Of a DNA stretch of 64,000 bases, positions 20,499-34,762 are shown in pieces. Position 1 is the stretch's first letter, and every line of letters starts with the position of its first letter. The translations under genes were made by a program, and so were the position numbers. The stretch lies in IMG/VR virus record IMGVR_UViG_3300032038_000036, positions 36,727 through 100,726 of that record. One strand, 5' to 3'. The stretch comes from a virus (taxonomy: Duplodnaviria; Caudoviricetes). The notes under the pieces are model-generated. The model made no database searches and was not told the DNA's origin. It worked only from the letters and a program-made list of their open reading frames with translations.

Positions 20499-20534
20499 TT
20501 TTATTTTTAATTACAAATATAATTATATAATAAA

Positions 20535-21890: not shown

Positions 21891-21959
21891 CGGGAGTTAG
21901 CTCAACGATAGAGCCATGGATTTTACTGTGAGACGGTTGTTTAACTCAATCACTCCCGA
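21891..21959 (+). ncRNA. degenerate tRNA-like RNA with 6-nt anticodon loop
   Basis: CGGGAGT/ACTCCCG acceptor; CATGG-ATTTTA-CTGTG; T loop TTTAACT. Confidence 0.55.
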
Positions 21960-21964
21960 CAAAA

Positions 21965-22025
21965 TTGGTTACGCAGTAAATGGTACATGTATGCTAGCTA
22001 TTTGGTTCGATTCCAACGTAACCAA
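21965..22025 (+). ncRNA. anticodon-less tRNA-like RNA
   Basis: TTGGTTACG/CGTAACCAA stem plus T arm. Confidence 0.55.
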
Positions 22026-22216
22026 CTAATAATTTGGATGCCTGCATTATCTTTTTTGACGGGTGAAAGCAGATGGAAGATAAAAACCAGCTCGGCCATT
22101 AAACAACAGAATGTGTCCAAATAAATAATAGGTTGAATAATGACGTAACCTTAATCGTGATGGTCATTCGTGTGGTTCGGTGCCTAAGACTGCGTTAATG
22201 GAACAAGGACACTTAT

Positions 22217-22291
22217 GGGTCGGTGGCGCAAATGGTAAGACGCGCTTGCCTTAGAAGCAAGATCTTGGGGGTTCGACTCCCCCTCGGCCTA
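22217..22291 (+). tRNA. tRNA-Leu(UAG) with short variable loop
   Basis: CTTGC-CTTAGAA-GCAAG. Confidence 0.8.
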
Positions 22292-22420
22292 CGCCTAATA
22301 GAATACTTGGGAGACTAAGAAAGGAAACGTAATAAAGATACATAAGGCCTTTGTTGATTTATTACAGACTCATCGCAAGATTTTCCTGGAGTCGGCAGTG
22401 GAATACCAAGAGGCAGATCT

Positions 22421-22496
22421 AGGAGCATAGCTCAGCTGGTTCAGTAGCGTCAGTCTTACAAACTGAAGGTCATGGGTTCGATCCCCATTGCTCCTA
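22421..22496 (+). tRNA. tRNA-Val(UAC)
   Basis: TCAGT-CTTACAA-ACTGA. Confidence 0.9.
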
Positions 22497-22743
22497 CGAA
22501 TACGATACCGCGTTTATGGGTAAGTTTATCCGGTTAAAATAAAACCACCTTATAACTCATTATTCAATGACTTGGTGATAGGAACTTATCGTTACCTATG
22601 AAAAAAGGAAATCATCAAGCTGAAAGAGATAGTATAACGACCTTGTCATGGCAACGTTATACATTTTTAGTAAGACCAGTTATGTGGGTATTTGTATGTC
22701 GCGAAGTACAAATATTCATTGGTTAGAATAATTGAGTGTTTAT

Positions 22744-22822
22744 GCGGCTGTGGCGCAATTGGTCGACGCAGCGGTCTAAGAAGCCGTCCTTCGGGGTATG
22801 GGTTCGAGTCCCATCAGCCGCA
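22744..22822 (+). tRNA. tRNA-Leu(AAG)
   Basis: loop CTAAGAA. Confidence 0.85.
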
Positions 22823-22970
22823 CAAAGAGATACTAAGAGGTTTACTCAATGATGTATTCAAAGTACAAGGATATTAGAGTATGGGATAGCGGGCGCTAAC
22901 AGTGTGATACAGAACTTCGCACACTTAGTAACAACATAGGCGAGTGTACAGTAACTTATGGCTCTTAAAT

Positions 22971-23058
22971 ACCTTCTTGGTGGAAATGGTAGACACGCCA
23001 GTCTAAGAAACTGGTCCGAAGTAACAGTAGGGTGCGGGTTCAAATCCCGTGGGAGGTA
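22971..23058 (+). tRNA. tRNA-Leu(AAG)
   Basis: CCAGT-CTAAGAA-ACTGG. Confidence 0.88.
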
Positions 23059-23062
23059 CAAA

Positions 23063-23128
23063 TAGAACTTATCCGGTGAATGCGCGCGGGATGAGAATAC
23101 TAGGAGGGTTCGACTCCCTCAGTTCTAT
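23063..23128 (+). ncRNA. tRNA-like RNA: acceptor + T arm, no canonical anticodon arm
   Basis: TAGAACT/AGTTCTA; GAGGG-TTCGACT-CCCTC. Confidence 0.55.
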
Positions 23129-23160
23129 TTATATAATAAATTAATATAATAGAGAGAAAA

Positions 23161-23409
23161 ATGATTACTCATGATTTAAAGACAATTGTAAAAGGTTCTG
23201 CCGTTCTTGATTGTGTAAAGGCAGGTGGTATTGCTGTTTATCATATAACAGTAGAAGATGGTACAATTTATTCACTTGATATTGATTTGTCTGATAAGCA
23301 TGATGTTGGAGAAACTGCTACATTTATGTCTCATTATGATAAAGCTTTAATATTGATGAGATGGATAAGACGTGCAATTGATAATGAAGAATTGTATAAG
23401 ATAAACTAA
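23161..23409 (+). CDS. hypothetical protein
   Basis: 82 aa; same AGAGAGAAAATG start context as 20178. Confidence 0.7.
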   Translation: MITHDLKTIVKGSAVLDCVKAGGIAVYHITVEDGTIYSLDIDLSDKHDVGETATFMSHYDKALILMRWIRRAIDNEELYKIN

Positions 23410-23537
23410 TTTGTTGTATCAATATATTTTTATACGAGGATAGGCTTTAATGCCTGCGGCTTGAACCGCTGCTGTCCGATTTATAACGGCTAACGAGATT
23501 TAATCTCCGTGAGAACAAATGGATCCTCGTTTTTAAT

Positions 23538-23616
23538 GGCCCGATGGCGGAATTGGTCTACGCAGCTGTCTCAAAAGCAGTGCTTCGGCGTCTGGGTTCG
23601 AATCCCAGTTGGGCTA
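23538..23616 (+). tRNA. tRNA-Leu(CAA)
   Basis: loop CTCAAAA. Confidence 0.9.
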
Positions 23617-23753
23617 CTCGCAATTGACATTACTTATGTAATTAGAATGATTTGGAGAAAAAAATTTCTAAATCATTCATTTTTTGTGAAAATATTTTGT
23701 CCATAAGACTATTTTATATTTATTATTAATTAAATTAAAAGAAAATATCGCAA

Positions 23754-23864
23754 ATGCAATTAGTCAATACATATAAACAAATATTAGACCAAACATTAGA
23801 TAATGCTTGGAATAAGGATTATGCGTTAAATTTTGACCACTTGCAGAATGATATGGAAGGATAA
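23754..23864 (+). CDS. 36 aa leader peptide MQLVNTYKQILDQTLDNAWNKDYALNFDHLQNDMEG
   Basis: short ORF containing antiterminator strand GACCACTTGCAG. Confidence 0.6.
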   Translation: MQLVNTYKQILDQTLDNAWNKDYALNFDHLQNDMEG

Positions 23865-23895
23865 TAAGAATATAACTATAAAATGATATAGCTGC

Positions 23896-23932
23896 AAGTG
23901 GTTAGGTGAAAAACTTAACCACTTATTTTTTT
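23896..23932 (+). terminator. intrinsic terminator of attenuator 2
   Basis: AAGTGGTTAGGT-GAAAA-ACTTAACCACTT-ATTTTTTT. Confidence 0.8.
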
Positions 23933-23963
23933 GTAAAAATTTCTAAAATATTTTCATAAATAA

Positions 23964-24001
23964 TTTGAAATTAAAACAGAAGATACTATATTATAATTGT
24001 A
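23964..24001 (+). promoter_or_regulatory. putative promoter of tRNA block 2
   Basis: TTTGAAAT...TACTATATTATAATTG. Confidence 0.5.
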
Positions 24002-24312
24002 ACAAAATTAAATATTATTTAATAACAAATATTATTTGATTTTTAGTTCTTTGAAATATTGAACTCAAGAGAAATAAAATCCACTGGGTTATTGAAGAAT
24101 AGGTTCAATTCCGATTCTATAACGTAGTCAGCCGGTACTCCTAAATAGGCAAAAGGAGCAATAATTCAGTAAAGGTACAAAGGTACTATATATGAGGGAT
24201 TGAAAATTTCCATGGGAATTTGAAAATCAGGGTAAAGTGACCCACCACATGTAGAGCAAGGATTCGCACTTAAATGAACATTATAGAAGAATAGTACTGG
24301 ATTTTTATAAAT

Positions 24313-24383
24313 TGGATCATGGTGTAATGGTAACACGCAAGATTTTGGTCCTTGCGTTCTGGGTTCGAGCCCCGGTGATCCAA
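24313..24383 (+). tRNA. tRNA-Gln(UUG)
   Basis: loop TTTTGGT. Confidence 0.88.
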
Positions 24384-24425
24384 CAAATTGATGTAGAAAT
24401 TTTTTTGAAATTTTTCTTACAAAAG

Positions 24426-24527
24426 TTTGAAATATTGAAATTAAGTTCTATATTAATATTGTAATTTTCAAATAATATTTAGAAAAATGTTATTTGATTA
24501 TTTACACTTGAGATCTTTGACATATTG
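24426..24527 (+). promoter_or_regulatory. promoter plus boxA-like leader
   Basis: TTTGAAAT...CTATATTAATATTG then AGATCTTTGACATATTG. Confidence 0.55.
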
Positions 24528-24806
24528 GTACAACAAAATAAATTTAATAAGGATCCTCTGAGATGGGTGCCCTAAGGTAGAAGCTTGAGGATTGAAATGG
24601 ATAATGTTTTATGCAACATCAAAAGCAGCTGTTTATTCAGCGGCGCCCGTGGGTATTAATCCCGATGAAAATATCGCCTTATTAAAACAAAAAACTGATT
24701 TGGAAGAGGAGTGGTGGAAAACCCCTTTCAATGGGATGCCAAGCAACCCAGCGAAATAGTTCAGTAAATATATGTAGTAATACAAACAGAATTTCCTTAT
24801 CATTCT

Positions 24807-24879
24807 GGTCTTATAATTTTAATGGTTAGAATACCTGATTAGTAATCAGGATGTTTGAGTTCGAATCTCAATGGGACCT
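24807..24879 (+). tRNA. tRNA-Thr(AGU)
   Basis: CCTGA-TTAGTAA-TCAGG. Confidence 0.85.
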
Positions 24880-25021
24880 CAATATGAATGCCTTCGATGT
24901 AAATTGGAAGATTATTTAATAAGTTGGAATAACATTCATAATTTAGGCCGAGAGAATACCACAGGAGCAGATTGAAATAAGTATTAGCTGATGTGGAACA
25001 ATATTCTTGATGACGCCATTT

Positions 25022-25095
25022 GCTCTGTTAGCTTTAATTGGTAGAGCGCCGCACTTGTAATGCGGATGTTATCGGTTCGAGTCCGGTACGGAGCT
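25022..25095 (+). tRNA. tRNA-Thr(UGU)
   Basis: CCGCA-CTTGTAA-TGCGG. Confidence 0.9.
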
Positions 25096-25152
25096 CCCGA
25101 AAGTACGATAGGTTTCAGGAATTTTCCCATCGTACTAAAAAATTCCAAATTT

Positions 25153-25226
25153 GGGCTTGCATGTACCAAGGCTGGCGAGGTTCCCTTGCAAGGAACTTGT
25201 GGAGAGTTCGATTCTCTTCGGGTCCA
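25153..25226 (+). tRNA. tRNA-Ala(UGC)
   Basis: GTTCC-CTTGCAA-GGAAC; G3.U70. Confidence 0.8.
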
Positions 25227-25378
25227 CAAATACAAAACTTCTATAAAGGAAATTTACTTAAGCTGCAGATTTTGTAAAAAGTATGTTATAGATGCGTCCG
25301 TTAGAAGTAATTTGATAGTTCATTTCCCTATGAAGGTTAAGGAGTCGGTAGAAGTAGAATCCGGCGCGGACATTTTTT

Positions 25379-25450
25379 GCTCCTGTAGCTCAGTGGTAGA
25401 GCAGTAGACTGTTAATCTATTGGTCGTGGGTTCAATCCCCTCCGGGAGCG
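25379..25450 (+). tRNA. tRNA-Asn(GUU)
   Basis: loop CTGTTAA. Confidence 0.9.
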
Positions 25451-25558
25451 CGAACATGGCGAAACATATCCAGTAACTATAGGTGAACAGAAAGGTGAAC
25501 AGCAAATAACCGAGTATGACTGGTGAATTTCACAAATCATGAATGATGCTGCATTCAT

Positions 25559-25684
25559 TTGTTTTTAGTTTAATTTGGATAAAACACCCGGATGAAACCG
25601 GGAGATGTAAAGAGCTGCTTAATTAGGCCTGATTGCAATGAGGAAACCGGTTAAGTTAGTTGGGTTCGAATCCCACAAAATAGC
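25559..25684 (+). ncRNA. tRNA-like RNA with ~50-nt insert at the T stem and 6-nt anticodon loop
   Basis: D arm GTTT/AAAC; CCCGG-ATGAAA-CCGGG; TGGG-TTCGAAT-CCCA. Confidence 0.55.
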
Positions 25685-25698
25685 AAATTAATAAAATT

Positions 25699-25772
25699 GG
25701 GGATATAGCTATAATGGTCAGAGCGGCGGCCTGTTAAGCCGATGGTTGTGGGTTCGAATCCCTCTGTCCCCG
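25699..25772 (+). tRNA. tRNA-Asn(GUU)
   Basis: loop CTGTTAA. Confidence 0.88.
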
Positions 25773-25858
25773 CTAGTGGTTTGAACTTGAATTAACAAGC
25801 GAAAGGATAAAAGCTTTCACACGAATATAAATCCGAAAATGCTAAATTATCCAATGAT

Positions 25859-25947
25859 GGCGCGATGATGGAATTGGTAGACATAGCAGACTTAAAATCT
25901 GCTGGGCCGTAAGGTCCGTGCGGGTTCGAGTCCCGCTCGCGCTACCA
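25859..25947 (+). tRNA. tRNA-Leu(UAA)
   Basis: GCAGA-CTTAAAA-TCTGC, CCA. Confidence 0.92.
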
Positions 25948-26073
25948 ATAATATGAGTGTGGAAATAACTTGTAACTCAAGTAGAGAGTTTCCAGTAAAT
26001 GGGTGGCGAGAAGAGTAAAGAGCTTACAATTTAGCCATATTATTATTTTGGATCACTTAGGTGACAGATATTT

Positions 26074-26148
26074 GGTCCATTGGTATAACGGTTAGAATAT
26101 GTGACTGTCGATCACAAGATGAGGGTTCGACTCCCTCATGGACCGCCA
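26074..26148 (+). tRNA. tRNA-Asp(GUC)
   Basis: TGTGA-CTGTCGA-TCACA, CCA. Confidence 0.9.
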
Positions 26149-26169
26149 AATAACTAAGTGATATATTTT

Positions 26170-26243
26170 GGTGGCGTGGTTTGAATGGTTACAATGCCGG
26201 ACTGTCAATCCGTGTGGTGGGGGTTCGAATCCCCTCGTCACCG
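26170..26243 (+). tRNA. tRNA-Asp(GUC)
   Basis: loop CTGTCAA. Confidence 0.85.
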
Positions 26244-26409
26244 CAAATAGAAAATAATAACTTATAAATATAAATTAAAAACATATGAAAACAATGAAAC
26301 GAAAACGTTAGTTGTGTATGTTTCCTGAGAGAAATTGGTATTATGTTTTAACCAAAAGAAGCATGCACATAAAATCAAAATCAAAAACAAATGAATTTAT
26401 TATGTGTAT

Positions 26410-26486
26410 GCCCTCTTAGCTGAGTTGGTTAAAGCTGCGGCCTTTTAAGCCGAGGATCCAGGGTTCGAGTCCCTGAGGGGGTACCA
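26410..26486 (+). tRNA. tRNA-Lys(UUU)
   Basis: loop CTTTTAA, CCA. Confidence 0.9.
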
Positions 26487-26489
26487 TTT

Positions 26490-26564
26490 GCTCTCATGGC
26501 GTTAATTGGTTAGCGTACCAGACTTTTAATCTGCGAGGTCAGGGTTCGAATCCCTGTGGGAGCA
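26490..26564 (+). tRNA. tRNA-Lys(UUU)
   Basis: loop CTTTTAA. Confidence 0.88.
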
Positions 26565-26578
26565 CAATTATAAATTAT

Positions 26579-26652
26579 GCCTCTGTAGCTGAGCTGGTTA
26601 AAGCTGCGGCCTCTTAAGCCGAGGATCGTGGGTTCGAATCCCACCGGAGGTA
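26579..26652 (+). tRNA. tRNA-Lys(CUU)
   Basis: loop CTCTTAA. Confidence 0.9.
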
Positions 26653-26678
26653 CACAACGGTTTCATATTGTTTAATAT

Positions 26679-26765
26679 GGCTCCGTGGCGAAATTGGTAG
26701 TACGCATCAGACTTAAAATCTGAGGTCCAGAAATGGGCGTGTGGGTTCGACTCCCACCGGGGCTA
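26679..26765 (+). tRNA. tRNA-Leu(UAA)
   Basis: TCAGA-CTTAAAA-TCTGA. Confidence 0.92.
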
Positions 26766-26932
26766 CAAATTAAATTTGGATGTGACTGCAGCAATATATA
26801 TAAAATTCATATTTAAGTGGAAGCTGTCACGGCTGCTTACCTGATATAAAGTAAGTAATAAATGTGTAAATGTTGACTTGCCTTAAGAAAGCAAATGTCA
26901 AATCCACTCGGTGAATTAATATGAATTTCCTT

Positions 26933-27005
26933 GGGGAGGTCGTTTAGTGGTCCAGGACAGTAGGCTTACATCCTACCAACCAGAGTTCGATTCTCTGCCG
27001 CCCCA
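26933..27005 (+). tRNA. tRNA-Val(UAC)
   Basis: GTAGG-CTTACAT-CCTAC. Confidence 0.82.
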
Positions 27006-27224
27006 CTCTTGCATGCCGTGCAAAAATTCATGGAGAAGTTAAATGGCTAAAGGTTGTTCTTTGAAGTATTAATGCGTACGACAATTATGGAGAAGATATT
27101 CATGAATCTTATTAGTGATTAGATAAGTTGATAATGGCGTAATTAACCATTTGATGATATTCTTTTTGGTAATAAGTTTAACACAGCTCCAATACAGTTC
27201 TCGATAATCTGGGAAATCGAAGTT

Positions 27225-27297
27225 GGTCCGTTGGTTGAACGGTAACAATGCCGGCTTGTCACGCCGTGTGGTACGGGTTCGATTCCCGTACGGACCG
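27225..27297 (+). tRNA. tRNA-Asp(GUC)
   Basis: loop TTGTCAC. Confidence 0.85.
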
Positions 27298-27393
27298 CGA
27301 ACATGGCTCATTTAGGGTATTCTGAATAAATGGCTGCAACTGTTTTGAAAGTTACCTATTAAATGAACAAATCGTTTCAATTGCAGTTGAAAC

Positions 27394-27479
27394 TTATGTT
27401 TAGTGTATGGGTTGCATGCTGGCGGCAAACAGTACGGCTGTTACCGCCGGAGGATAAGGTTCGAATCCTTGAGCATAGC
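27394..27479 (+). ncRNA. tRNA-like RNA with elongated anticodon arm
   Basis: CTGGCGG-CA-AACAG-TACGG-CTGTT-A-CCGCCGG plus T arm. Confidence 0.55.
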
Positions 27480-27752
27480 TATTTGTTGTATTGCAGGTAA
27501 CAATATAACAAATTATATGGGAAGAAATGGAGATAGTTTGGTTAAGTCGGTTTGTTGAAAATAGATTTAACACGGGCTGTTGAGACGATATAATTCTCAA
27601 CAGTAACAAGGAACAGATCCGAGCCTTTTAAATTCGGACAGCGATAAGTTGTGGCTTATCAGTGGTTGAATCTAAACTTATACCACGCATGAAACACTGC
27701 TAAATACGTTTAGCCGGTTCGTGGAAATTCCGGTTTTAATTTCCACCTTTTT

Positions 27753-27837
27753 GGGGTGGCTGCTCTGATGGTGGAAGGGCGGCGGACTGTAAATCCGTTA
27801 CTATGAAACACAGGGGGTTCGAATCCCTCCCACCCCA
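27753..27837 (+). tRNA. tRNA-Tyr(GUA)
   Basis: GCGGA-CTGTAAA-TCCGT. Confidence 0.88.
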
Positions 27838-27908
27838 CTGGCATCAGAACTGAGGTTCGAATCCTCAGAGAAGTAGTACTACTTAGTTTAGAAATGGTTA
27901 AAACAGTG
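27838..27908 (+). ncRNA. circularly permuted tRNA-like RNA
   Basis: T arm TGAGG/CCTCA, AAGTAG/CTACTT hairpin, D arm GTTT-AGAAATGGTTA-AAAC. Confidence 0.55.
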
Positions 27909-28004
27909 TAAGTCCGAGTTTTATTAATAAATTTAAAAGTTAAGAGTTATGAAGGAAGCAGTATTTTATTGCGGTATAGATGACTCAGAAGCATTCTATA
28001 CCAA

Positions 28005-28098
28005 GCCTGAGTAACGGCACCGGTCTGTAAAACCGATCTGCATCAACAAATTGTCGTAGTGGGCTCGCAGTAAGTAGGTTCGAATCCTACCTCAGGCA
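28005..28098 (+). tRNA. D-armless tRNA-Tyr(GUA)-like RNA with long variable arm
   Basis: GCCTGAG/CTCAGGC; CGGT-CTGTAAA-ACCG. Confidence 0.6.
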
Positions 28099-28111
28099 CA
28101 ATTCTTAACAA

Positions 28112-28248
28112 TGCCGGTTTATCACAGTATATTGGTAACTGTAGCCGCCCCGTACAGGCGGGTTCAACCAATCGAAAGTATATAGCTCGAGACAATATAT
28201 ATGAATAGAAGTTGAATATGTGAATAGGTTCGATTCCCACGATGGCAC
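28112..28248 (+). tRNA. aberrant tRNA-Tyr(GUA)-like RNA with ~55-nt variable insert
   Basis: CCGCC-CCGTACA-GGCGG; TTCAAC...GTTGAA arm; bulged T stem. Confidence 0.5.
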
Positions 28249-28364
28249 AATGGTTTATAATAATTAATCGAATTAATCTTGGAGGTAAAATCTCGCTCCT
28301 TACGATGAAGCGTTTTTATTTCGGTAAAATTCCGATATGGGAGTTAAATAGATTAAAGAGATTT

Positions 28365-28437
28365 GCGCTCTTAGCTCAGTTGGCAGAGCAACGGGCTTTT
28401 AATCCGTGGGTCCTGGGTTCGAGTCCCAGAGGGCGTA
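28365..28437 (+). tRNA. tRNA-Lys(UUU)
   Basis: loop CTTTTAA. Confidence 0.9.
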
Positions 28438-28443
28438 CAATTT

Positions 28444-28515
28444 GCCTCTATGGCAGAAGGGTTCATGCACCGGACTCTTAATCCGGCTATTAGGGTTCGA
28501 GTCCCTATGGAGGTA
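28444..28515 (+). tRNA. tRNA-Lys(CUU)
   Basis: CCGGA-CTCTTAA-TCCGG. Confidence 0.88.
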
Positions 28516-28521
28516 CAATAT

Positions 28522-28596
28522 CGCGGAAGCAGTGTGGTGGTCGCATACAAGGCTCATAACCTTAGTGGTGGAGTTCAATTCTCACTTCCGCAACCA
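28522..28596 (+). tRNA. initiator-like tRNA-Met(CAU)
   Basis: C1:A72 mismatch, loop CTCATAA, CCA. Confidence 0.75.
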
Positions 28597-28785
28597 ATTA
28601 TATTCTATCAGGTCGGAGTGCAGAGAAGTACTAATTAGTAAATTAGTAGGTATGACGAACATTAGGAAAATCCGGCACGTAGGTGGTACAGAATTATGGG
28701 AAGTTGCAAATTCGCTATAATTTCCGAGGCCGTAGGATGCGTTTAGGCGGTCATACGTTGGAAGGCGCAGGTGGGTAGAATATAT

Positions 28786-28858
28786 GGGGAGATAGTGTAA
28801 CGGTCAGCACGGGAGTCTTATACACTCGATAGTCTGGGTTCAAATCCCGGTCTCCCTA
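28786..28858 (+). tRNA. tRNA-Ile(UAU)
   Basis: GAGT-CTTATAC-ACTC. Confidence 0.8.
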
Positions 28859-29097
28859 CTCGTGCCAAGGTAGAGCGATGCAAGCCAGTATCTTGTGCTA
28901 GTCTTTCGCCATGTAGATGACGGGAAGTAATGTAAAATCATTGCAACATGGTACAAGCCCTCCCTATTCGGAACACGTAAGTGGTAAAGGTAAGGACTTT
29001 ATAACCGAAAGGTGAATTTGATAAGGATGCCGAATAGCCGAAAATGTATGAAATTGAAGTGAGTAGGTGAGTTACCAGTCTCGAAATACTGGTTAAT

Positions 29098-29170
29098 GCG
29101 TCTCTGGTCTAATGGTTAAGGCACTGGACTCCAAACCCAGTAGATGAGGGTTCGACTCCTTCGGGGCGCG
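29098..29170 (+). tRNA. tRNA-Trp(CCA)
   Basis: loop CTCCAAA, G73. Confidence 0.85.
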
Positions 29171-29302
29171 CTTATTATTTTGATAGTTCTGAAAAATTTT
29201 AATCAGAATGGGCGACATTGACTTGCTTAGCCCAGTGTTGAAATGCAGACCATTTAGGTAATCCTGCAAAGTATAATCTAAAAAAATCGAGGAGTCAAAT
29301 AT

Positions 29303-29442
29303 GGGTAGGTAACATAAAAAACGATTTAAAACTTCGGTCGTTGTTCTCCGTAAGGTAGTGTAGATTGTGAGTTACTTCAAAGGATTAATGTATTTGTCTG
29401 TTAAACAAAAGAGTGTTGGTTCGAGTCCAACCCTACCCGCCA
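29303..29442 (+). tRNA. tRNA-Asn(GUU) with module in D loop
   Basis: GGGTAGG/CCTACCC-G-CCA; TTTGT-CTGTTAA-ACAAA; module 29331-29378. Confidence 0.8.
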
Positions 29443-29537
29443 CTTATAAGGGAACCGAGTTATGGGGTACTCGGGGATAGGAAAGTTTGGAAACGTATTT
29501 GTCCTGTAAATCAGTCTTTCAAATAAACAACCCTTAT

Positions 29538-29608
29538 GGAGCATTAGGCTAACGGTAAACTGCTCCCGTGCTCTGGGAGTGTTCGAGGTTCAATTCCTTG
29601 GTGTTCCG
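29538..29608 (+). tRNA. tRNA-Ser(GCU)-like with short variable loop
   Basis: CTCCC-GTGCTCT-GGGAG. Confidence 0.6.
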
Positions 29609-29614
29609 CAAATT

Positions 29615-29744
29615 GGTGACGTAGCTAAACGGTAGATAAACGACTTTATTCGCTGTTACTCAGAAATGATGTTGTAGAACAGAGTTACTTCAAAGCATTA
29701 ATCAGTCAAATTAAGGAAAGTTGGTTCGACTCCAACCGTCACCG
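29615..29744 (+). tRNA. tRNA-Asp(GUC)-like with module in D loop
   Basis: TTAAT-CAGTCAA-ATTAA (A33); module 29643-29691. Confidence 0.7.
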
Positions 29745-29781
29745 CAATAATAAATTTTTGAAAATTTTATATTTTCAATAT

Positions 29782-29929
29782 TGGGTAGAAGTATAAGGGT
29801 AAAACAAATTTCAAAATGACTTTATTCGCTGTTACTCAGAAATGATGTTGTAGAACAGAGTTACTTCAAATTTAAATGTACATTTCGTCGTAATCGAAAG
29901 AGATGGTGGTTCGAGTCCACCCTACCCAA
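29782..29929 (+). tRNA. tRNA-like RNA (GUA or CGU anticodon) with module in D loop
   Basis: TTTCG-TCGTAAT-CGAAA; module 29819-29867. Confidence 0.65.
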
Positions 29930-29998
29930 CAATTCTCGTCGAGCAGCTGGTTTTCAGGGGCTTGTCACCAGCTGGGAACAAAAAAGACCGCCCACCAT

Positions 29999-30085
29999 GT
30001 GTCTATGGCCGAGTGGTTGAAGGCAGCAGACTGTTAATCTGCCGTGGAGAAATCCCCATCGTAGGTTCGATCCCTACTGGGCACG
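29999..30085 (+). tRNA. tRNA-Asn(GUU) with class II variable arm
   Basis: GCAGA-CTGTTAA-TCTGC; long V arm. Confidence 0.82.
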
Positions 30086-30092
30086 CCCTAAG

Positions 30093-30201
30093 TACTCTAT
30101 GGTGAAATTGGAAACTGACTTGAAGGCCAAAAGTTAGTAATACACGGAGGAACTGTAAACCTCTGCTTTAATGCATCTCGGTTCGAATCCGAGTAGAGTA
30201 C
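30093..30201 (+). tRNA. tRNA-Tyr(GUA)-like with extra hairpin in D loop and enlarged anticodon loop
   Basis: ACTGACTT..AAGTTAGT insert; GGAGG-AACTGTAAA-CCTCT. Confidence 0.6.
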
Positions 30202-30223
30202 TATGTTATATTCTTGCAAGAAT

Positions 30224-30295
30224 CGGGATTTGGTGTAATGGTAAGCACGGGGTTGTATTTGCGCAACCAGGTGAAGTTCGAATCTTCGGTCCCAA
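30224..30295 (+). ncRNA. tRNA-like RNA with 8-nt anticodon loop
   Basis: GGTTG-TATTTGCG-CAACC; D and T arms present. Confidence 0.55.
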
Positions 30296-30562
30296 CAAAT
30301 AACTATCGGTGTCCGAGTGAAACGGATATGTTTCTATATTGATGTGTCGGCGGACTGTGTTAAGACTTAGAATTAGGGCGCTACTTATCGACGGATAAGC
30401 AATCTTGAAAGGGGTACTTAACAGCATCAAGAAATAAACAAGGTTAAAAGTCAAGCAAGCCCGGGATAAAGTGAGGAACTAAGTTACTTGTTTTGGAAAC
30501 GATCACGGCAGGGATATAGCACCTGCAAATAATGGGTTCGACTCCCATGGCCGCTACAAGAT

Positions 30563-30700
30563 TGCCATTTAGCTCAGTCGGGTAGAGCACGTAACAATAC
30601 TTTTGTCGCTGGTTACGTAATATCATTAATTACTGTTGAAGATGAGAGTTACTTCAGCCTTTTAAGCTCGGGGTCGTGGGTTCGAGCCCCACAGTGGCAA
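30563..30700 (+). tRNA. tRNA-Lys(UUU) with 64-nt module insert in anticodon stem
   Basis: removing 30592-30655 restores CGAGC-CTTTTAA-GCTCG. Confidence 0.78.
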
Positions 30701-30827
30701 CTAATAAAAATATATCAGCATCTAAAACAGGGCCGAAGGAGAAACAATAGGCGCGCATTGTTCAATGGTTTGGGTCTGTCCGATGAGAAAAATCTTTGAG
30801 GCTAAGCCATGATGGATATATTTTTTC

Positions 30828-30865
30828 TTTGAAATTTTATTTATATAAAACTATATTATTATTGT
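30828..30865 (+). promoter_or_regulatory. putative promoter of last tRNA block
   Basis: TTTGAAAT...ACTATATTATTATTG. Confidence 0.45.
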
Positions 30866-30882
30866 TAATAAACAAACAGTTT

Positions 30883-30955
30883 GGGATGTAGGTCAAACGG
30901 TTAAGATGTCTGCCTGTCACGCAGCACGGAGCGGGTTCAACTCCCGTACGTCCCG
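30883..30955 (+). tRNA. tRNA-Asp(GUC)
   Basis: loop CTGTCAC. Confidence 0.85.
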
Positions 30956-31152
30956 CATAATATTGTTAAAAAGATGACATGCTCCTAAGGTAGGAATAAA
31001 TCTTTTTATGCAAGAGTCAATAACGATGGTTCTGATAGAATAAAAATTAAATTCAGAGAAATTAGATATTCAGCGCATGCGGGCTATCGTGGGAAGTACA
31101 ACCACAATTAGGGCGAGGCATAGTTGTTATTGCACAATATTATTTCTTCGTT

Positions 31153-31226
31153 GGGCCCGTAGCTCAGTTGGTTAGAGCAGCAGACTCATAATCTGAAGGT
31201 CGTGGGTTCAATCCCCTCCGGGCCCA
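31153..31226 (+). tRNA. tRNA-CAU (Ile2-like body)
   Basis: GGGCCCG/CGGGCCC; loop CTCATAA. Confidence 0.88.
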
Positions 31227-31245
31227 CAAATTATTATTAATATAT

Positions 31246-31316
31246 CGCGGTGGTAGAGCAATGGTAGCTCGTAAGGCTCATAACCTTGAGACGCAGTTCG
31301 AATCTGACGGCCGCAA
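31246..31316 (+). tRNA. initiator-like tRNA-Met(CAU)
   Basis: C1:A72; GTAGAGCAATGGTAGCTC D arm. Confidence 0.75.
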
Positions 31317-31323
31317 CTAATAT

Positions 31324-31394
31324 CGTGGGATAGTGTAAAGGTAACATTAAAGGCTCATAACCTTTAGCTTCTGGTTCGACTCCAGATCCCGCAA
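31324..31394 (+). tRNA. initiator-like tRNA-Met(CAU)
   Basis: C1:A72; AAAGG-CTCATAA-CCTTT. Confidence 0.8.
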
Positions 31395-31644
31395 CTCCGA
31401 GCCCGTAATAGGGACACGTACCTGACGTAAGCGGAAACGATAGGTAAAATGAATTGGGAGGCTCAGTAAGCTTTGTGGTAATACACGCTAGCCTATCTAC
31501 CTATGCCGAACGACTCTTAACCAATTCAATGAGAAATTTATCAGGTTGTTCTCATATTTTTATAAAGAACTTAAATAGATCACGTGGAGGCAGACCACCC
31601 GACCGGAGTAATTAACCGGAAATATGCATTAGTTCTTTATATTT

Positions 31645-31727
31645 GCCGGAATGGGACAGTGGTCGACTCCACTTGACTTGTAATCATGCTCCGTAAGGAC
31701 GCGTCAGTTCGAATCTGACTTCCGGCT
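31645..31727 (+). tRNA. tRNA-Thr(UGU) with class II variable arm
   Basis: loop CTTGTAA; V arm TCC-GTAA-GGA. Confidence 0.78.
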
Positions 31728-31916
31728 CTATCGTGTACATACCACTTGCTGGATTATCTGCACGTAAAAAATCAAAAGAGGTCGCGCCTCAACGTAACGT
31801 TAGTAATCCCTGAATAAATATGTGAGTGAGAGCGTATTCTATTGTTTGTTCAAATTGACTATTCTATCGTAAGTGAGAAAGTTTTTCTGTTTCGGTAACA
31901 ACTTAAAACAGTATTT

Positions 31917-31989
31917 GGGGTCATGGTATAGTCGGCTAACACTTCTGCCTTGCACGCAGAGATCCCGGGTTCGAAGCCCGGTGGCTCCA
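31917..31989 (+). tRNA. tRNA-Ala(UGC)
   Basis: TCTGC-CTTGCAC-GCAGA; G3.U70. Confidence 0.88.
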
Positions 31990-32247
31990 CACAGAACATA
32001 CTACTAAGTATGAGAAATACAAAAAGTTAAGTACTGGAAATTGGCTTCTAAACGGCGGATTTGTTCCGTGTTAGTTGGAAGAGAAAACTGGGGTACAGGC
32101 TATAAAACTCTGATATCGGAGATGCCCAGGGCTTAAGCACGCGAAGGCCGTGTACAGGAATACTGTAGGTGACAGTGATACGTCTGCATGGAATATATAC
32201 AGTAAGCAATCTTAACCCATACTTAGCAAGTGGACTGTCAATATACT

Positions 32248-32358
32248 AAACAAACCTTGTTGTATTATAGAGATACTTCATATTTTTATTGTTTGTTTGA
32301 TTTTTATTTTATTACGATTACATTTTTATTTCTTTATAAGAGTGTTACGGGTTTGTTT
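32248..32358 (+). ncRNA. Y-RNA-like module RNA 6 with U-rich loop
   Basis: AAACAAACCT-T-GT-TGTA-TTATAGAGA-TACTTC...TCTTTATAA-GAGTGTT-AC-GGGTTTGTTT. Confidence 0.7.
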
Positions 32359-32379
32359 ATTTTTTTAAGAGAAAAATAT

Positions 32380-32451
32380 TGGGCTATCGTATAACGGTTA
32401 TTACACAAGATTTTGGTCCTTGTAATGCAGGTCCGATTCCTGCTGGCCCAA
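32380..32451 (+). tRNA. tRNA-Gln(UUG)
   Basis: loop TTTTGGT. Confidence 0.85.
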
Positions 32452-32842
32452 CTAATTAACTTGCTTAACATAGTTCATGACACTGGTTACCGTTTTAGCA
32501 ATTGTAGGTATACATGCAATGAGGTTATCGGAGAAGAATCAAGGAACCGATGATTTAAAAATATGATTTAAATCAGACTTCACCAGAAGCAAGTTTTTAA
32601 TATAATTTGATGAGTACAGGCCTCTGAGTAGTACTGGGGTAAGTAATAAGCAAATGTCGACTTCTTCTTATTACGTTGGTTGGATCTAAGAAATAGTCCT
32701 CGCCCAGTGAAATGAGTTGAGTTTCGTGAGAGCTCATAAGGTGCAACGCAACAGAAGAGTAAAATCTCAAAGAGATAATGCAATCCGCGTTTTCTAGCCG
32801 TGGTTTCTTCAGTCCGTAGCTCGCAAATTTACTCATCAATAT

Positions 32843-32914
32843 ACGGACTTAGTATAACGGTTATTATGACGGTCTCCAAAACCGTGGATGTGGGTTCGAT
32901 TCCTGCAGTCCGTG
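32843..32914 (+). tRNA. tRNA-Trp(CCA)
   Basis: ACGGT-CTCCAAA-ACCGT. Confidence 0.9.
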
Positions 32915-32998
32915 CTTAATATAAATAATGGAAAATAAATTCATCACTTATGGGAAGTTATTTATATTTAAGGGACGCTGCGTGATGAACAGTGTAAA

Positions 32999-33067
32999 AG
33001 GCTATTAGTATATCGGTTAGTATGCTTGGTAGTGCAAGAGAGGCGGGTTCGACTCCCGTATAGCTTT
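32999..33067 (+). ncRNA. tRNA-like RNA with truncated anticodon arm
   Basis: CTTG-GTAGTG-CAAG (4-bp stem, 6-nt loop); intact D and T arms. Confidence 0.6.
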
Positions 33068-33092
33068 CAAATTTTGTTGTATCAATTTATTT

Positions 33093-33166
33093 GTCCCATT
33101 GGTATAGAGATTGTGCCGCTGCTTCTAAACCAGCTGAGGTGGGTTTGAGTCCTACATGGGGCACCA
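33093..33166 (+). tRNA. amber suppressor tRNA (CUA)
   Basis: GTCCCAT/ATGGGGC-A-CCA; GCTGC-TTCTAAA-CCAGC, anticodon CTA at 33125-33127. Confidence 0.8.
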
Positions 33167-33289
33167 AAGGAAGAGTTCAGGTTAGAATCCTGTTTGAAAA
33201 CGGACTACACATCAAGGTTTGCCCGTTTGGTGTATAGAATTTGAAACAGCACGCCTTTTATTTACTAACAAATTAATTAAATTAAAATT

Positions 33290-33331
33290 ATGAAACAATT
33301 TTGGTAGATTTTTGAAGATGGTTTTCCGTAA
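33290..33331 (+). promoter_or_regulatory. leader mini-ORF MKQFW(TAG)IFEDGFP(TAA) with downstream alternative hairpins
   Basis: strong A-rich start context; competing TGTTCAA/TTGAACA pairings at 33351-33411. Confidence 0.5.
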
Positions 33332-33443
33332 ATAGATTTGTTTATTAAATCTGTTCAATATTTTCTATGTGTTCAACAATATTTGAACAGAACGTTTTCT
33401 TGAACACAGAAACATTATAAACAAAAAATATTTATTTACAATT

Positions 33444-33908
33444 ATGGAAAACAAAGAATTTAGAAACGCTTTATTAGAAGCAATCAAGAACGAATTAAAA
33501 GATTTCACTCAAATTCAAAAGGATTTAAAGAAATCACGTAAGGAACAATATCGTCCAAAAGGAAAAGCATTACAAGATATTGTTGATGAAGCTAAAAGTA
33601 ATGCAGCAAAAATTGAAACTCTTATTTATTATTATCGTTGGTTGAAGCACGGTTTGAAATACTGGGCTAATAGAGGTATTCATAACTTTAAGGAATATAA
33701 GTTCTTAAAATTAAACGATAAAGGCTTTGATGCTGATGACTATTATTTCAAGAACTGGGATAAAGTTATTGATTACGGAACAAACAAAGGTAAAACTCAC
33801 GGTGAACTTTTAATGCAATATTCAAAGACTTATTATATTAACAAATGTAATGAGTATGGAATTGAAGTATCAGAAAGTAATGTTAAGTATATCATTGAAA
33901 ATAAATAA
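33444..33908 (+). CDS. hypothetical protein
   Basis: 154 aa ORF. Confidence 0.7.
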   Translation: MENKEFRNALLEAIKNELKDFTQIQKDLKKSRKEQYRPKGKALQDIVDEAKSNAAKIETLIYYYRWLKHGLKYWANRGIHNFKEYKFLKLNDKGFDADDYYFKNWDKVIDYGTNKGKTHGELLMQYSKTYYINKCNEYGIEVSESNVKYIIENK

Positions 33909-33920
33909 ACGATAATAATT

Positions 33921-34331
33921 ATGGATAAGGAATATATTTTAGATTTAATTAAAAAGAGTGACGAGTTTAATCATATGTACACTCATGAAGGAGAAGACTT
34001 TGTAATTGATGCAACAACTAAAGAACAGTTTTTAGCATTCAAAGATTTCGTTAAGTCTAAATCTCATCACCACTATGTATATGTTGCTTATTATGCATTC
34101 AAGCATCGTATTGGATGTGATTTTGAAAATGGTGAATTGGTTGATAATTTGAAGTTAAGAGAGTATCTTGATAATGAAATTGTCAAATGTTATAAAATGC
34201 TTTACCATGGAGAAAATTCATGGGCTTATGGAGGTGGTGGTGATTGTATGAAATATGAAGCAATCCCAAGATTTAAGAGAAAAGTAATTGAAACATACAA
34301 TAAATTTGCTACATTAAAAAATGAAAAATAA
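33921..34331 (+). CDS. hypothetical protein
   Basis: 136 aa ORF. Confidence 0.7.
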   Translation: MDKEYILDLIKKSDEFNHMYTHEGEDFVIDATTKEQFLAFKDFVKSKSHHHYVYVAYYAFKHRIGCDFENGELVDNLKLREYLDNEIVKCYKMLYHGENSWAYGGGGDCMKYEAIPRFKRKVIETYNKFATLKNEK

Positions 34332-34665
34332 ATTATATATTTTAACAGATAAAACATTAGATCCTATATATGCTGCTGTTCAAGGTGGTCATGCTGTTGC
34401 AGAATGGTTACTTGAAAATTGGTAGATACAAGGAAATGGAGATCCTGCTTTGGAATGGAGAAATGATTATCTTATTTATTTGTCAGCTGATGTAAATGAG
34501 TGGTATGAAAGACTTGCACCATTTGATCCATCAAAATATAAATGGACATATTTTACAGAACCAGATTTAGATAATAAATTAACGGCAATTGCAATATATG
34601 AACATGATTTTCCTGGGATTATAAAGAGAAAATTGAAAAATGAGAAATTATTAGAGAGGAATTAA
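34321..34665 (+). CDS. peptidyl-tRNA hydrolase type 2 (Pth2)-like protein with in-frame TAG at 34423-34425
   Basis: KLYILTD..L...AAVQGGHAVAEW before the TAG and FTEPDLDNKLTAIAI after it in the same frame (114 aa if read through). Confidence 0.7.
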
Positions 34666-34762
34666 CTTCCTCTCTTTTATTTTTAAACATATTGAGCACA
34701 CCGTACTATATTTATTTTTAAATATATATCAATGTTCAATTAACAAAAATATTAAAAATATT

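What the first reader, a model, noticed from the sequence alone, without database searches (positions are those of the whole stretch)
33093..34665. Amber suppressor tRNA coupled to a TAG-interrupted peptidyl-tRNA hydrolase operon in an otherwise standard-code region
Seen: a CUA tRNA with encoded CCA ends the array; 1.2 kb downstream a Pth2-like gene (34321-34665) has one in-frame TAG separating its QxxHA and EPD-TAIA motifs. Long genes elsewhere in the window (1839, 1110, 651 aa) have no in-frame TAG and nearly all end in TAA or TGA. Established: Lak phages reassign TAG to Gln. Inference: here TAG read-through acts as a conditional switch or an early stage of recoding, making Pth only when suppressor outcompetes RF1.
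Basis: partly seen in the sequence, partly recalled or inferred. Interest (0 to 1): 0.85.

Follow-up and report, generated by a model that had tools for sequence, protein, structure and literature searches.

The report
Conserved amber gate in phage hydrolase
A rumen megaphage that otherwise uses the standard genetic code keeps one stop codon (TAG) inside a small tRNA-hydrolase-like gene, next to its own TAG-reading tRNA, so this one protein can probably be completed only when the phage's suppressor tRNA is working.

Summary
A tRNA with anticodon CUA (33093-33163) is the last gene of a ~62-tRNA array. It has orthologues in 25 related loci (18 distinct sequences). Its cloverleaf shows compensatory changes in 10 of 21 pairs, and the anticodon never varies.

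About 1.2 kb downstream, a 114-codon gene (34321-34665) carries an in-frame TAG at codon 35 (34423-34425). Read through, it folds confidently (pLDDT 94) into the PTH2 peptidyl-tRNA-hydrolase fold. The canonical catalytic Lys is replaced by Tyr, so the enzyme's activity is open.

TAG occupies the same column in 34 of 41 distinct orthologues, although pairwise dS is about 1. A 44%-identical homologue has it at the same position.

My scans found no other credible in-frame TAG in:
- the 100-kb contig, which includes the portal and terminase genes;
- a 98%-complete 376-kb relative.

One strain-specific case turned up in a 236-kb relative. TAG still ends about 5% of genes.

TAG-recoded relatives lack TAG in this gene. 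These are Lak-A/B and a subclade nested within the TAG-bearing clade. The gene usually lies next to a stop-anticodon tRNA (CUA, UUA or UCA).

Best reading: programmed, suppressor-dependent expression of this one gene. The mechanism is inferred, not shown. The scan had not noted this on other DNA.

The parts
13934..33166 (+). Array of about 62 tRNA genes, all on the + strand; the suppressor is its last member.
   Evidence: ARAGORN finds 61 genes. Rfam adds one more at 33093.
33093..33166 (+). tRNA(CUA) amber suppressor. Body 33093-33163, anticodon 33125-33127, incidental CCA 33164-33166. Positions 31 and 39 are never base-paired.
   Evidence: Rfam 33.7 bits. Orthologues score 87-100 bits in 25 related loci. 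Among 18 distinct sequences, 95% of cells pair, 10 of 21 pairs show compensatory changes, the anticodon is invariant, and the 31-39 pair is unpaired in 18 of 18.
33444..33908 (+). ORF of 154 aa, function unknown; first gene of the three-gene unit downstream of the tRNA.
   Evidence: ORF list. No Pfam, PHROG or NCBIfam match. Conserved in relatives. Covered by the same RNA-library contigs as the PTH2-like gene.
33921..34331 (+). ORF of 136 aa, function unknown; its stop codon overlaps the start of the PTH2-like gene, which suggests translational coupling.
   Evidence: It is 33-34% identical to the small ORF that overlaps the PTH2-like start in L103 and L105.
34321..34665 (+). PTH2-fold gene of 114 codons when the TAG is read through.
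   Evidence: PHROG 3668 'hydrolase', E=1.1e-10, spans residues 1-92 and so crosses the TAG. AlphaFold2 pLDDT 94.4. Twelve of the 14 best Foldseek hits are PTH2 peptidyl-tRNA hydrolases or their annotated homologues, TM 0.49-0.65. dN/dS is 0.09 before the TAG and 0.41 after it.
34423..34425 (+). In-frame TAG (codon 35), in the loop after helix 1, followed by A.
   Evidence: TAG in 34 of 41 distinct orthologues. The next base is a purine in 30 of 34.
34653..34685 (+). Intrinsic terminator-like hairpin with a T-run, overlapping the gene's TAA stop.
   Evidence: The two RNA-library contigs end at 34644 and 34658 (a weak hint only).

Best explanation
This is a programmed amber codon.

Setting. The phage is a standard-code relative of the Lak megaphages, with a genome of about 376 kb, found in cow and sheep gut or rumen samples. 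It encodes one tRNA(CUA) at the end of its tRNA array.

The element. Just downstream, a three-gene unit ends in a PTH2-fold hydrolase gene. Codon 35 of that gene is TAG, in a surface loop that tolerates substitutions.

How it most likely works (inferred).
- If RF1 wins at the TAG, translation stops after 34 residues. That peptide lacks the conserved EPD/T half of the fold and should be inactive.
- The full protein is made only when the phage suppressor tRNA is expressed, charged and wins against RF1.
- Output of the enzyme is therefore tied to the level of amber suppression in the infected cell.
- The inserted residue is probably Gln.

Proposed role (the weakest step). The enzyme acts on peptidyl- or aminoacyl-tRNA in connection with stop-codon suppression. 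The gate would match its supply to suppressor activity, either feed-forward (coping with read-through and stalled-ribosome products) or as feedback on the suppressor.

Shown here: the anatomy, the conservation, the fold, the standard code elsewhere, and the gene's linkage to stop-anticodon tRNAs.

Inferred: suppression itself, the inserted residue, the enzyme's substrate, and the direction of regulation.
For: 1. The TAG is real and positionally conserved.
- TAG sits in the same column in 34 of 41 distinct orthologues.
- Median pairwise dS among the TAG-bearing genes is about 0.9-1.0. dN/dS is 0.09 before the TAG and 0.41 after it.
- The flanking loop varies in both sequence and length.
- A homologue only 44% identical (P0149, L111) has TAG at the same position, 3 codons before the conserved Trp.

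2. TAG turns over much more slowly here than in genuinely recoded genomes.
- Synonymous sites in the same gene change 0-15 times on the tree, against 2 changes at the TAG column in the 37-sequence set.
- In the Lak-A2 versus Lak-B7 control (80% aa identity), only 12 of 39 TAG columns are shared, and TAG mostly swaps with Q.

3. The rest of the genome uses the standard code.
- My scans found no other credible in-frame TAG in the 100-kb contig, in the 376-kb relative G001 that CheckV rates 98% complete, in 120 kb of G004, in 34 kb of G005, or in 121 kb of metagenome flanks.
- The portal gene has 0 TAG in 7 clade genomes, against 7 in Lak-A2.
- TAG ends about 5% of genes.

4. The tRNA(CUA) looks functional and co-occurs with the gene.

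5. Homology (PHROG, E=1e-10) and a confident single-domain fold span the TAG.

6. The pattern is inverted in relatives that use TAG as a sense codon.
- Lak-A2 and Lak-B7 have AAT and GAT at this column.
- A nested subclade with a 16-34-TAG ORF next door has CAG, CAA or AAT.
- This fits code-switch-related genes having to be TAG-free once other genes depend on the switch.

7. The nearest tRNA to this gene carries a stop anticodon in five arrangements.
- CUA upstream (this clade).
- CUA 0.5 kb downstream (L072).
- CUA 0.8 kb downstream (L014).
- UUA 0.7 kb upstream (Lak-A2, Lak-B7).
- UCA 16-18 nt downstream (L103, L105, L106).

8. RNA-library contigs from two studies cover the unit with the TAG intact.
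Against: - No direct evidence of read-through: no peptide, no reporter assay.
- The window protein does not reach Pfam PTH2.
- The catalytic Lys of archaeal Pth2 (second K of the GKGK motif, identified from my own knowledge of that family) aligns to Tyr17. Peptidyl-tRNA hydrolase activity is therefore uncertain.
- Three nested lineages lost the TAG (TAT or GAG; CAC; CAG/CAA/AAT). One of them (L008, L071) still has an intact tRNA(CUA). So the TAG is dispensable, and the tRNA must have another role as well.
- L107 has no stop-anticodon tRNA beside the gene.
- There is no enrichment of back-up stops after TAG-terminated genes.
- There is no read-through-stimulating RNA structure.
- The gene tree rests on about 340 nt, and no branch supports were examined.
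Confidence: 0.6

Rival explanations
1. Minimal or incipient code-15 recoding with no regulatory role. The phage acquired a suppressor tRNA, and a single TAG (read as Gln) happened to become fixed in a tolerant loop of the nearest gene. It persists because it does little harm.
For: - Suppressor 'pre-emergence' and incipient code change have been described in crAss-like and Agate phages (PMC7886860; 10.1101/2021.08.26.457843).
- A nested sister lineage has CAG or CAA at this column.
- The column varies in more distant homologues (N, D, K, E).
- Low GC content and rare TAG stops fit the published path towards recoding.
Against: - A neutral TAG should have turned over. Pairwise dS is about 1, other synonymous sites change up to 15 times, and Lak TAG columns are only 31% shared at 80% identity. 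Yet TAG is kept in 34 of 41 sequences, and in a 44%-identical homologue.
- No second conserved sense TAG has accumulated in genomes whose portal proteins are only 71-88% identical.
- The TAG always sits in the gene that is linked to stop-anticodon tRNAs.
Confidence: 0.25
2. The TAG is a true stop. The gene is either a pseudogene or is made as two pieces: a 34-aa peptide plus a separately initiated C-terminal fragment.
For: - Code-11 gene callers produce C-terminal fragments of 64-78 aa, some starting at an ATG just after the TAG (P0070, P0071, P0078).
- In the window, a TTG at 34450 could start a 71-aa ORF.
Against: - There is no conserved start codon after the TAG. The next codons are ATA, ACT, GAT, GTT, CTT and others.
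- Both halves are under purifying selection.
- His24 and the EPD/T motif lie on opposite sides of the TAG within a single compact domain.
- Conservation in 34 lineages argues against a pseudogene.
Confidence: 0.06
3. Dedicated decoding of TAG as a special residue, by analogy with pyrrolysine (pylT plus a single UAG in the methyltransferase genes).
For: The anatomy is similar: a dedicated tRNA(CUA) gene lies beside a gene with one position-conserved UAG, in an otherwise standard-code genome. Two ORFs of unknown function lie between them.
Against: - No PylS-like synthetase in G000, G001 or G002.
- The tRNA is a canonical cloverleaf without tRNA-Pyl features (those features are recalled from my own knowledge).
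- The residue lies in a variable loop and has been replaced by Q, H, N and Y or E in relatives.
Confidence: 0.03

Closest known systems
Code-15 (TAG read as Gln) Lak megaphages of Prevotella (PMC6784885, PMC8346664, 10.1101/2021.08.26.457843)
   Same: Related phages: the PTH2-like protein is 41-43% identical and the portal 33%. Shared features are low GC, large tRNA sets, a phage-encoded suppressor tRNA, and a PTH2-like gene beside a stop-anticodon tRNA.
   Different: In Lak phages, TAG is a common sense codon: 7 in the portal gene and more than 20 in a neighbouring 1334-aa ORF. Their PTH2-like gene has no TAG. Here the pattern is reversed: one TAG in the whole genome, and it is in this gene. 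The genome is about 376 kb rather than about 540 kb. The relative G001 has PrfH, and the RF-1-domain search found no other release-factor gene there; Lak phages are reported to carry RF2.
Suppressor tRNA in standard-code phages: 'pre-emergence' or incipient code change (crAss-like phages, PMC7886860; Agate phages, 10.1101/2021.08.26.457843)
   Same: A suppressor tRNA is present without genome-wide reassignment, in low-GC phages where TAG stops are rare.
   Different: Those cases are described as transient precursors, with either no client codon or TAGs beginning to accumulate in conserved genes. Here there is one fixed client codon, conserved across a deep clade.
prfB (RF2) autoregulation through an in-frame UGA
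   Same: An in-frame stop codon early in a translation-related gene makes the gene's output depend on how that stop codon is decoded.
   Different: RF2 escapes by a +1 frameshift, and the product is the release factor itself, giving proven negative feedback. Here escape would be by a dedicated suppressor tRNA. The product's effect on decoding is unknown.
Pyrrolysine system (pylT with a single UAG in mtmB, mtbB and mttB)
   Same: A dedicated tRNA(CUA) lies near genes that each have one position-conserved in-frame UAG, in a standard-code genome.
   Different: There is no PylS or PylBCD here. The tRNA is canonical. The residue is in a variable loop, not an active site.
Viral programmed read-through (Q-beta A1 protein, retroviral gag-pol)
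   Same: A conserved stop codon is partly read through to yield a second, longer product.
   Different: Those viruses rely on near-cognate host tRNAs, and both products are functional. Here the virus supplies a cognate suppressor, and the short product is presumably useless.
PTH2 peptidyl-tRNA hydrolases (PF01981; PDB 1XTY, 2ZV3, 3ERJ, 1Q7S)
   Same: Same fold (TM 0.49-0.65). The Q-G-G-H-A motif is shared. 26 of 62 family members match PF01981.
   Different: The window protein is below the Pfam threshold. The catalytic Lys is replaced by Tyr or Gln. The family has its own invariant E-P-D...T motif. It is found in phages, often beside tRNA or RNA-repair genes.

Membership tests
PTH2 peptidyl-tRNA hydrolase (PF01981) | Match to the Pfam model above its gathering score | tested here: not met
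   The window protein has no hit even at E<=1. However, 26 of 62 family members hit PTH2 (best E=7e-8), and the family profile hits the archaeal Pth2 structure 2zv3 at E=7e-4.
PTH2 peptidyl-tRNA hydrolase (PF01981) | PTH2 alpha/beta fold | tested here: met
   AlphaFold2 pLDDT 94.4, pTM 0.87. Twelve of the 14 best Foldseek PDB hits are PTH2 hydrolases or their annotated homologues (2zv3, 3erj, 1wn2, 1xty, 1q7s). The other two (2gax, the best-scoring hit, and 1rlk) are deposited as proteins of unknown function. After these the scores drop sharply.
PTH2 peptidyl-tRNA hydrolase (PF01981) | Catalytic Lys (second K of the GKGK motif) and Asp of archaeal Pth2. The identity of these residues comes from my own knowledge. 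| tested here: not met
   In the profile alignment to 2zv3, the second K of GKGK aligns to Tyr17, which is Y or Q across the family. An invariant E80-P81-D82 could supply the acidic residue, but this was not resolved.
PTH2 peptidyl-tRNA hydrolase (PF01981) | Hydrolysis of peptidyl-tRNA | not testable with these tools
   Requires an enzyme assay.
Code-15 (TAG-recoded) phage | Many in-frame TAGs in genes, especially late genes | tested here: not met
   My scans found a single TAG-containing gene in 100 kb and in the 376-kb relative. The portal and terminase genes are TAG-free.
Code-15 (TAG-recoded) phage | TAG is not used as a terminator | tested here: not met
   TAG ends 18 of 375 crude genes of at least 100 aa in G001 (22 of 456 at a cut-off of 80 aa). 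In G000 it ends about 4 real genes.
Code-15 (TAG-recoded) phage | Phage-encoded tRNA(CUA) | tested here: met
Programmed (regulatory) stop-codon read-through | An in-frame stop at a fixed position, conserved beyond neutral expectation, with coding constraint on both sides | tested here: met
Programmed (regulatory) stop-codon read-through | Read-through product demonstrated, and regulation demonstrated | not testable with these tools
   Requires proteomics or reporter assays.
Pyrrolysine-type dedicated UAG decoding | A PylS synthetase and a tRNA with the tRNA-Pyl architecture | tested here: not met
   No TIGR02367 match in G000, G001 or G002, while the control genomes do match. The tRNA is a canonical cloverleaf.

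The most novel reading that the evidence does not exclude
Lak-type megaphages carry a conserved two-part module: a stop-anticodon tRNA (CUA, UUA or UCA, apparently one tRNA lineage whose anticodon moves among the three stop anticodons) plus a PTH2-fold enzyme that acts on it or on its products.

In standard-code members, the enzyme's own mRNA carries the module's only client codon. This would form a self-referential sensor that sets the level of amber suppression.

The same module would explain the so-far unexplained TAA-reading tRNA reported in all 51 Lak genomes examined (PMC8346664). It may also be the seed from which genome-wide recoding repeatedly grows.
Probability: 0.3. Interest if true: 0.9.

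Novelty: new variant of a known kind. Interest (0 to 1): 0.78.

Why it matters
How a virus changes the genetic code inside a standard-code host, and how such a change begins, is an open question. Known recoded phages show the end state, with hundreds of sense TAGs. The published 'pre-emergence' cases show a suppressor tRNA with no client codon.

This clade shows a stable intermediate: one suppressor and one conserved client codon, located in a tRNA-hydrolase-like gene that is itself linked to stop-anticodon tRNAs across the whole Lak group. A more heavily recoded lineage is nested inside it.

This provides a small, testable system of one tRNA, one codon and one enzyme. It could be used to ask whether suppression is sensed and regulated, which residue is inserted, and what the PTH2-like protein does. 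It also gives a lead on the unexplained TAA-reading tRNA reported in all 51 Lak genomes examined.

Tried and rejected
- Pfam and NCBIfam on the read-through protein and on the two upstream ORFs: no matches. The protein atlas for ORF136 returned only its own viral cluster.
- Read-through-stimulating RNA structure around the TAG: none. The region folds less well than shuffled sequence, z=+1.9.
- Back-up stops after TAG-terminated genes, as a signature of in-vivo suppression: no enrichment, p=0.43.
Relatives end in TAA, and Lak-A2 in TGA.
- Two other ORFs in G001, and several in G002 and G004, that appeared to contain TAG: they look like antisense frames of real genes.
- One genuine-looking case in G002 (189674-190648) has no orthologue in the other genomes and is strain-specific.
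- The TAG-dense 828-aa ORF of L107 has no homologue in the standard-code genomes, so the aligned residues could not be read.
- Amino-acid identity of the tRNA: unresolved. The nearest paralogues by covariance score are tRNA-Lys in this clade (56.7 and 48.9 bits) and, in Lak, the Lak suppressors and tRNA-Gln (46-49 bits). The acceptor stem is not Gln-like. Gln is favoured only by the CAG/CAA codons in the sister lineage and by analogy with Lak.
- PylS: absent.
- A conserved protein partner of the enzyme: the ORF immediately upstream differs between lineages. No complex prediction was run.
- The depth and the ends of the RNA-library contigs are contig-level data. They do not prove transcription.
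Full report
**What the window is**

The window is the last 64 kb of a 100,726-bp viral contig with 30% GC. CheckV rates the contig about 35% complete.

It carries a T4-type portal gene (45936-47702), a large terminase gene (40687-42642), smpB (49045-49488), and an array of about 62 tRNA genes at 13.9-33.2 kb.

The gene in question matches Prevotella phages Lak-A, Lak-B and Lak-C at 41-43% identity. It matches a set of IMG/VR and metagenome contigs at 48-96% identity. One of these contigs is a 376,291-bp record rated 98% complete (G001).

Runs that hold the sequence are recorded as cow and sheep gut metagenomes and metatranscriptomes.

**Checking the observation**

*The tRNA.*
- ARAGORN does not call a CUA tRNA in the window. 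Rfam's tRNA model does, at 33093-33163 with 33.7 bits, above the threshold of 29.
- The score is low because of a U at position 56 and an unpaired 31-39 position.
- ARAGORN calls orthologues in relatives as 'tRNA-Pyl (cta)'.
- A covariance model built from nine copies finds orthologues at 87-100 bits in 25 related loci besides the window. Every other tRNA scores 57 bits or less.
- Among 18 distinct sequences, 95% of cells pair and 10 of 21 pairs show compensatory changes. None of 500 shuffles reach these values.
- The CUA anticodon is invariant. Pair 31-39 is unpaired in all 18 sequences.
- The CCA that follows the window's copy is not conserved.

*The gene.*
- It spans 34321-34665 and has one in-frame TAG at 34423-34425.

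**Is the TAG an error, a pseudogene, or meant to be there?**

- The same column is TAG in 34 of 41 distinct orthologous sequences from independent assemblies.
- Two RNA-library contigs from different studies span the unit with the TAG intact.
- Among the TAG-bearing genes, median pairwise dS is about 0.9-1.0. dN/dS is 0.09 for codons 1-34 and 0.41 for the rest. Both halves therefore encode constrained protein.
- No start codon is conserved after the TAG.
- PHROG 3668 ('hydrolase', E=1e-10) aligns across the TAG.
- The read-through protein folds as one compact domain (pLDDT 94.4). The TAG falls in the loop after helix 1.
- The loop after the TAG varies in sequence and in length (3 to 15 residues), yet the TAG stays.
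- On a tree of the gene, synonymous sites of conserved residues change 0-15 times. The TAG column changes twice in the 37-sequence set, and three lineages lose it in the extended set.
- As a control, I aligned a 1334-codon ORF of Lak-A2 and Lak-B7 (80% identical). Only 12 of 39 TAG columns are shared, and TAG mostly swaps with Gln.
- A homologue only 44% identical (P0149, contig L111) has TAG at the same place, three codons before the conserved Trp.

I conclude that the TAG is maintained by selection as a codon.

**Is the rest of the genome standard-code?**

- A codon-usage screen for ORFs with coding-like sequence on both sides of a TAG finds only this gene in the 100-kb contig.
- It finds only this gene in the 376-kb G001. 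Two further hits there look like antisense frames.
- The same holds for 120 kb of G004, for 34 kb of G005, and for 121 kb of metagenome flanks.
- G002 (236 kb) has one extra, strain-specific case.
- The portal gene has no TAG in seven clade genomes, against 7 in Lak-A2.
- TAG still terminates about 5% of genes: 18 of 375 in G001.
- In contrast, the Lak-A2 and Lak-B7 genes that flank the homologous gene are full of TAGs.

**What the protein is**

- The window protein misses Pfam PTH2.
- However, 26 of 62 family members hit it, and the family profile hits archaeal Pth2 (2zv3, E=7e-4).
- Twelve of the 14 best Foldseek hits are PTH2 hydrolases or their annotated homologues, with TM 0.49-0.65. The other two (2gax, the best-scoring hit, and 1rlk) are deposited as proteins of unknown function.
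- In the profile alignment, the second Lys of the archaeal GKGK motif aligns to Tyr17. From my own knowledge, that Lys is the catalytic one.
- The family has its own invariant His24 and Glu-Pro-Asp 80-82.

It is therefore a divergent member of the PTH2 superfamily with an unproven substrate. Another family member sits beside PNKP, a CCA-adding enzyme and a Macro-domain gene, which fits tRNA-related chemistry.

**Comparative pattern**

Rooted on the Lak sequences, the gene tree places L072 (AAC at this column) at the base. Next comes a clade in which TAG is ancestral. Three nested lineages have lost it:
- L008 and L071 (TAT or GAG);
- L043 (CAC);
- the L103/L105/L107/L109 subclade (CAG, CAA, AAT).

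That last subclade has a 670-830-codon ORF with 16-34 in-frame TAGs right beside the gene. So wider use of TAG as a sense codon arose inside the single-TAG clade, and the gene lost its TAG there. CAG and CAA in that lineage, together with the Lak precedent, favour Gln as the inserted residue. The tree rests on about 340 nt and should be treated as suggestive.

The nearest tRNA to this gene carries a stop anticodon in five arrangements:
- CUA 1.2-1.8 kb upstream (this clade);
- CUA 0.5 kb downstream (L072);
- CUA 0.8 kb downstream (L014);
- UUA 0.7 kb upstream (Lak-A2 and Lak-B7);
- UCA 16-18 nt downstream (L103, L105, L106).

The L072 CUA tRNA and the L105/L106 UCA tRNAs share their acceptor, D and T arms.

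Crisci et al. report a TAA-reading tRNA in all 51 Lak genomes they examined and give no explanation for it (PMC8346664). It is this tRNA that lies beside the gene in the two Lak genomes I checked. L107 is an exception, with no such tRNA nearby.

**Mechanism**

*Shown.* A conserved cognate suppressor gene lies upstream on the same strand. The unit consists of ORF154, ORF136 (overlapping the next start) and the PTH2-like gene, and ends in a terminator-like hairpin. There is a single conserved TAG early in the gene, followed by a purine in 30 of 34 distinct sequences. I take that context to favour suppression, from general knowledge. It is also simply typical of first codon positions.

*Inferred.* Termination at the TAG gives a useless 34-residue peptide, and suppression gives the enzyme. 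Enzyme output would therefore track suppressor activity.

The phage also encodes SmpB. The relative G001 encodes tmRNA and PrfH. A role in dealing with the products of read-through or stalled ribosomes is therefore plausible. Feedback on the suppressor itself is an alternative.

L008 and L071 keep the tRNA without the TAG. The tRNA must therefore have another role as well, for example disturbing host termination, as others have proposed for recoded phages (PMC7886860).

**Comparison with what is known**

Suppressor tRNAs in standard-code phages, and 'incipient' recoding, have been described. Among the papers I searched and read, I found no description of:
- a single position-conserved client codon;
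- its placement in a PTH2-like gene;
- the inverse pattern in recoded relatives;
- the linkage of that gene to stop-anticodon tRNAs.

The closest analogies in logic are the in-frame UGA of prfB and the pylT/UAG pairs. Neither family's defining features are met here.

**Verdict**

I class this as a new variant of phage stop-codon recoding, of high interest. Direct proof of read-through and of the enzyme's activity is still missing.

Noticed in passing
L012:5234-5306 and L013:5344-5416 (Lak-A2, Lak-B7): The tRNA(UUA) lies about 0.7 kb upstream of the TAG-free PTH2-like gene and is the only tRNA within 12 kb. Crisci et al. report such a tRNA in all 51 Lak genomes they examined and give no explanation for it. 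Like the window's tRNA(CUA), it has a mismatched 31-39 position (A-C).
   Followed up: partly
L103:6360-6433, L105:6340-6412, L106:2103-2176: In a nested subclade, a tRNA with anticodon UCA (and C at position 33) starts 16-18 nt after the PTH2-like gene. A 670-830-codon ORF with 16-34 in-frame TAGs lies just upstream (L103:3012-5348, L107:6850-9348). It has no Pfam match and no homologue in the standard-code genomes.
   Followed up: partly
window 32999-33068: A tRNA-like gene (Rfam 38.9 bits) has only 6 nt in its anticodon loop, and ARAGORN reports a two-base anticodon '(ag)'. It is conserved in relatives (L003:926-995; G001:343937-344006).
   Followed up: no
window 33171-33253: The stretch just 3' of the tRNA(CUA) has much higher summed contig depth in RNA libraries (436 against about 25-40 in run X17). 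Many diverged short contigs map there, which suggests an abundant, repeated small-RNA module. Earlier notes on this genome describe a Y-RNA-like module in the array.
   Followed up: no
window 49045-49488: The phage smpB gene (Pfam SmpB, E=2e-56) ends in TAG here, with 13 further codons before the next stop. Relatives end in TAA, and Lak-A2 in TGA, so the TAG stop is not conserved.
   Followed up: yes
G001:308600-309217 (L048:1192-1809); G001:103338-103744: The 376-kb relative encodes release factor H (PrfH; TIGR03072, 174.5 bits, above its cut-off) and a tmRNA. Together with SmpB and the PTH2-like gene, these make up a ribosome-rescue set.
   Followed up: partly
G002:189674-190648 (- strand): A strain-specific 320-codon gene has one in-frame TAG between two strongly coding halves. 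Its C-terminal domain is also present in G004. It may be a sporadic TAG tolerated because the suppressor is active, or it may be a fresh nonsense mutation.
   Followed up: partly
L008:1112-1441: In the lineage that lost the TAG but kept the tRNA(CUA), the unit between the tRNA and the PTH2-like gene includes a 109-aa ORF with weak GNAT acetyltransferase matches (E=2e-5, below threshold).
   Followed up: partly
L112:815-5330: A distant member of the family (P0128) lies downstream of genes for a PNKP-type HAD phosphatase, a CCA-adding enzyme or poly(A) polymerase with an HD domain, and a Macro domain. This is a tRNA/RNA-repair neighbourhood.
   Followed up: no
window 34763-36541: The gene after the terminator encodes a 592-aa protein with a lipoprotein-like N-terminus and a DUF4842 match. 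Its position downstream of the PTH2-like gene is conserved in relatives (L043, L105).
   Followed up: no
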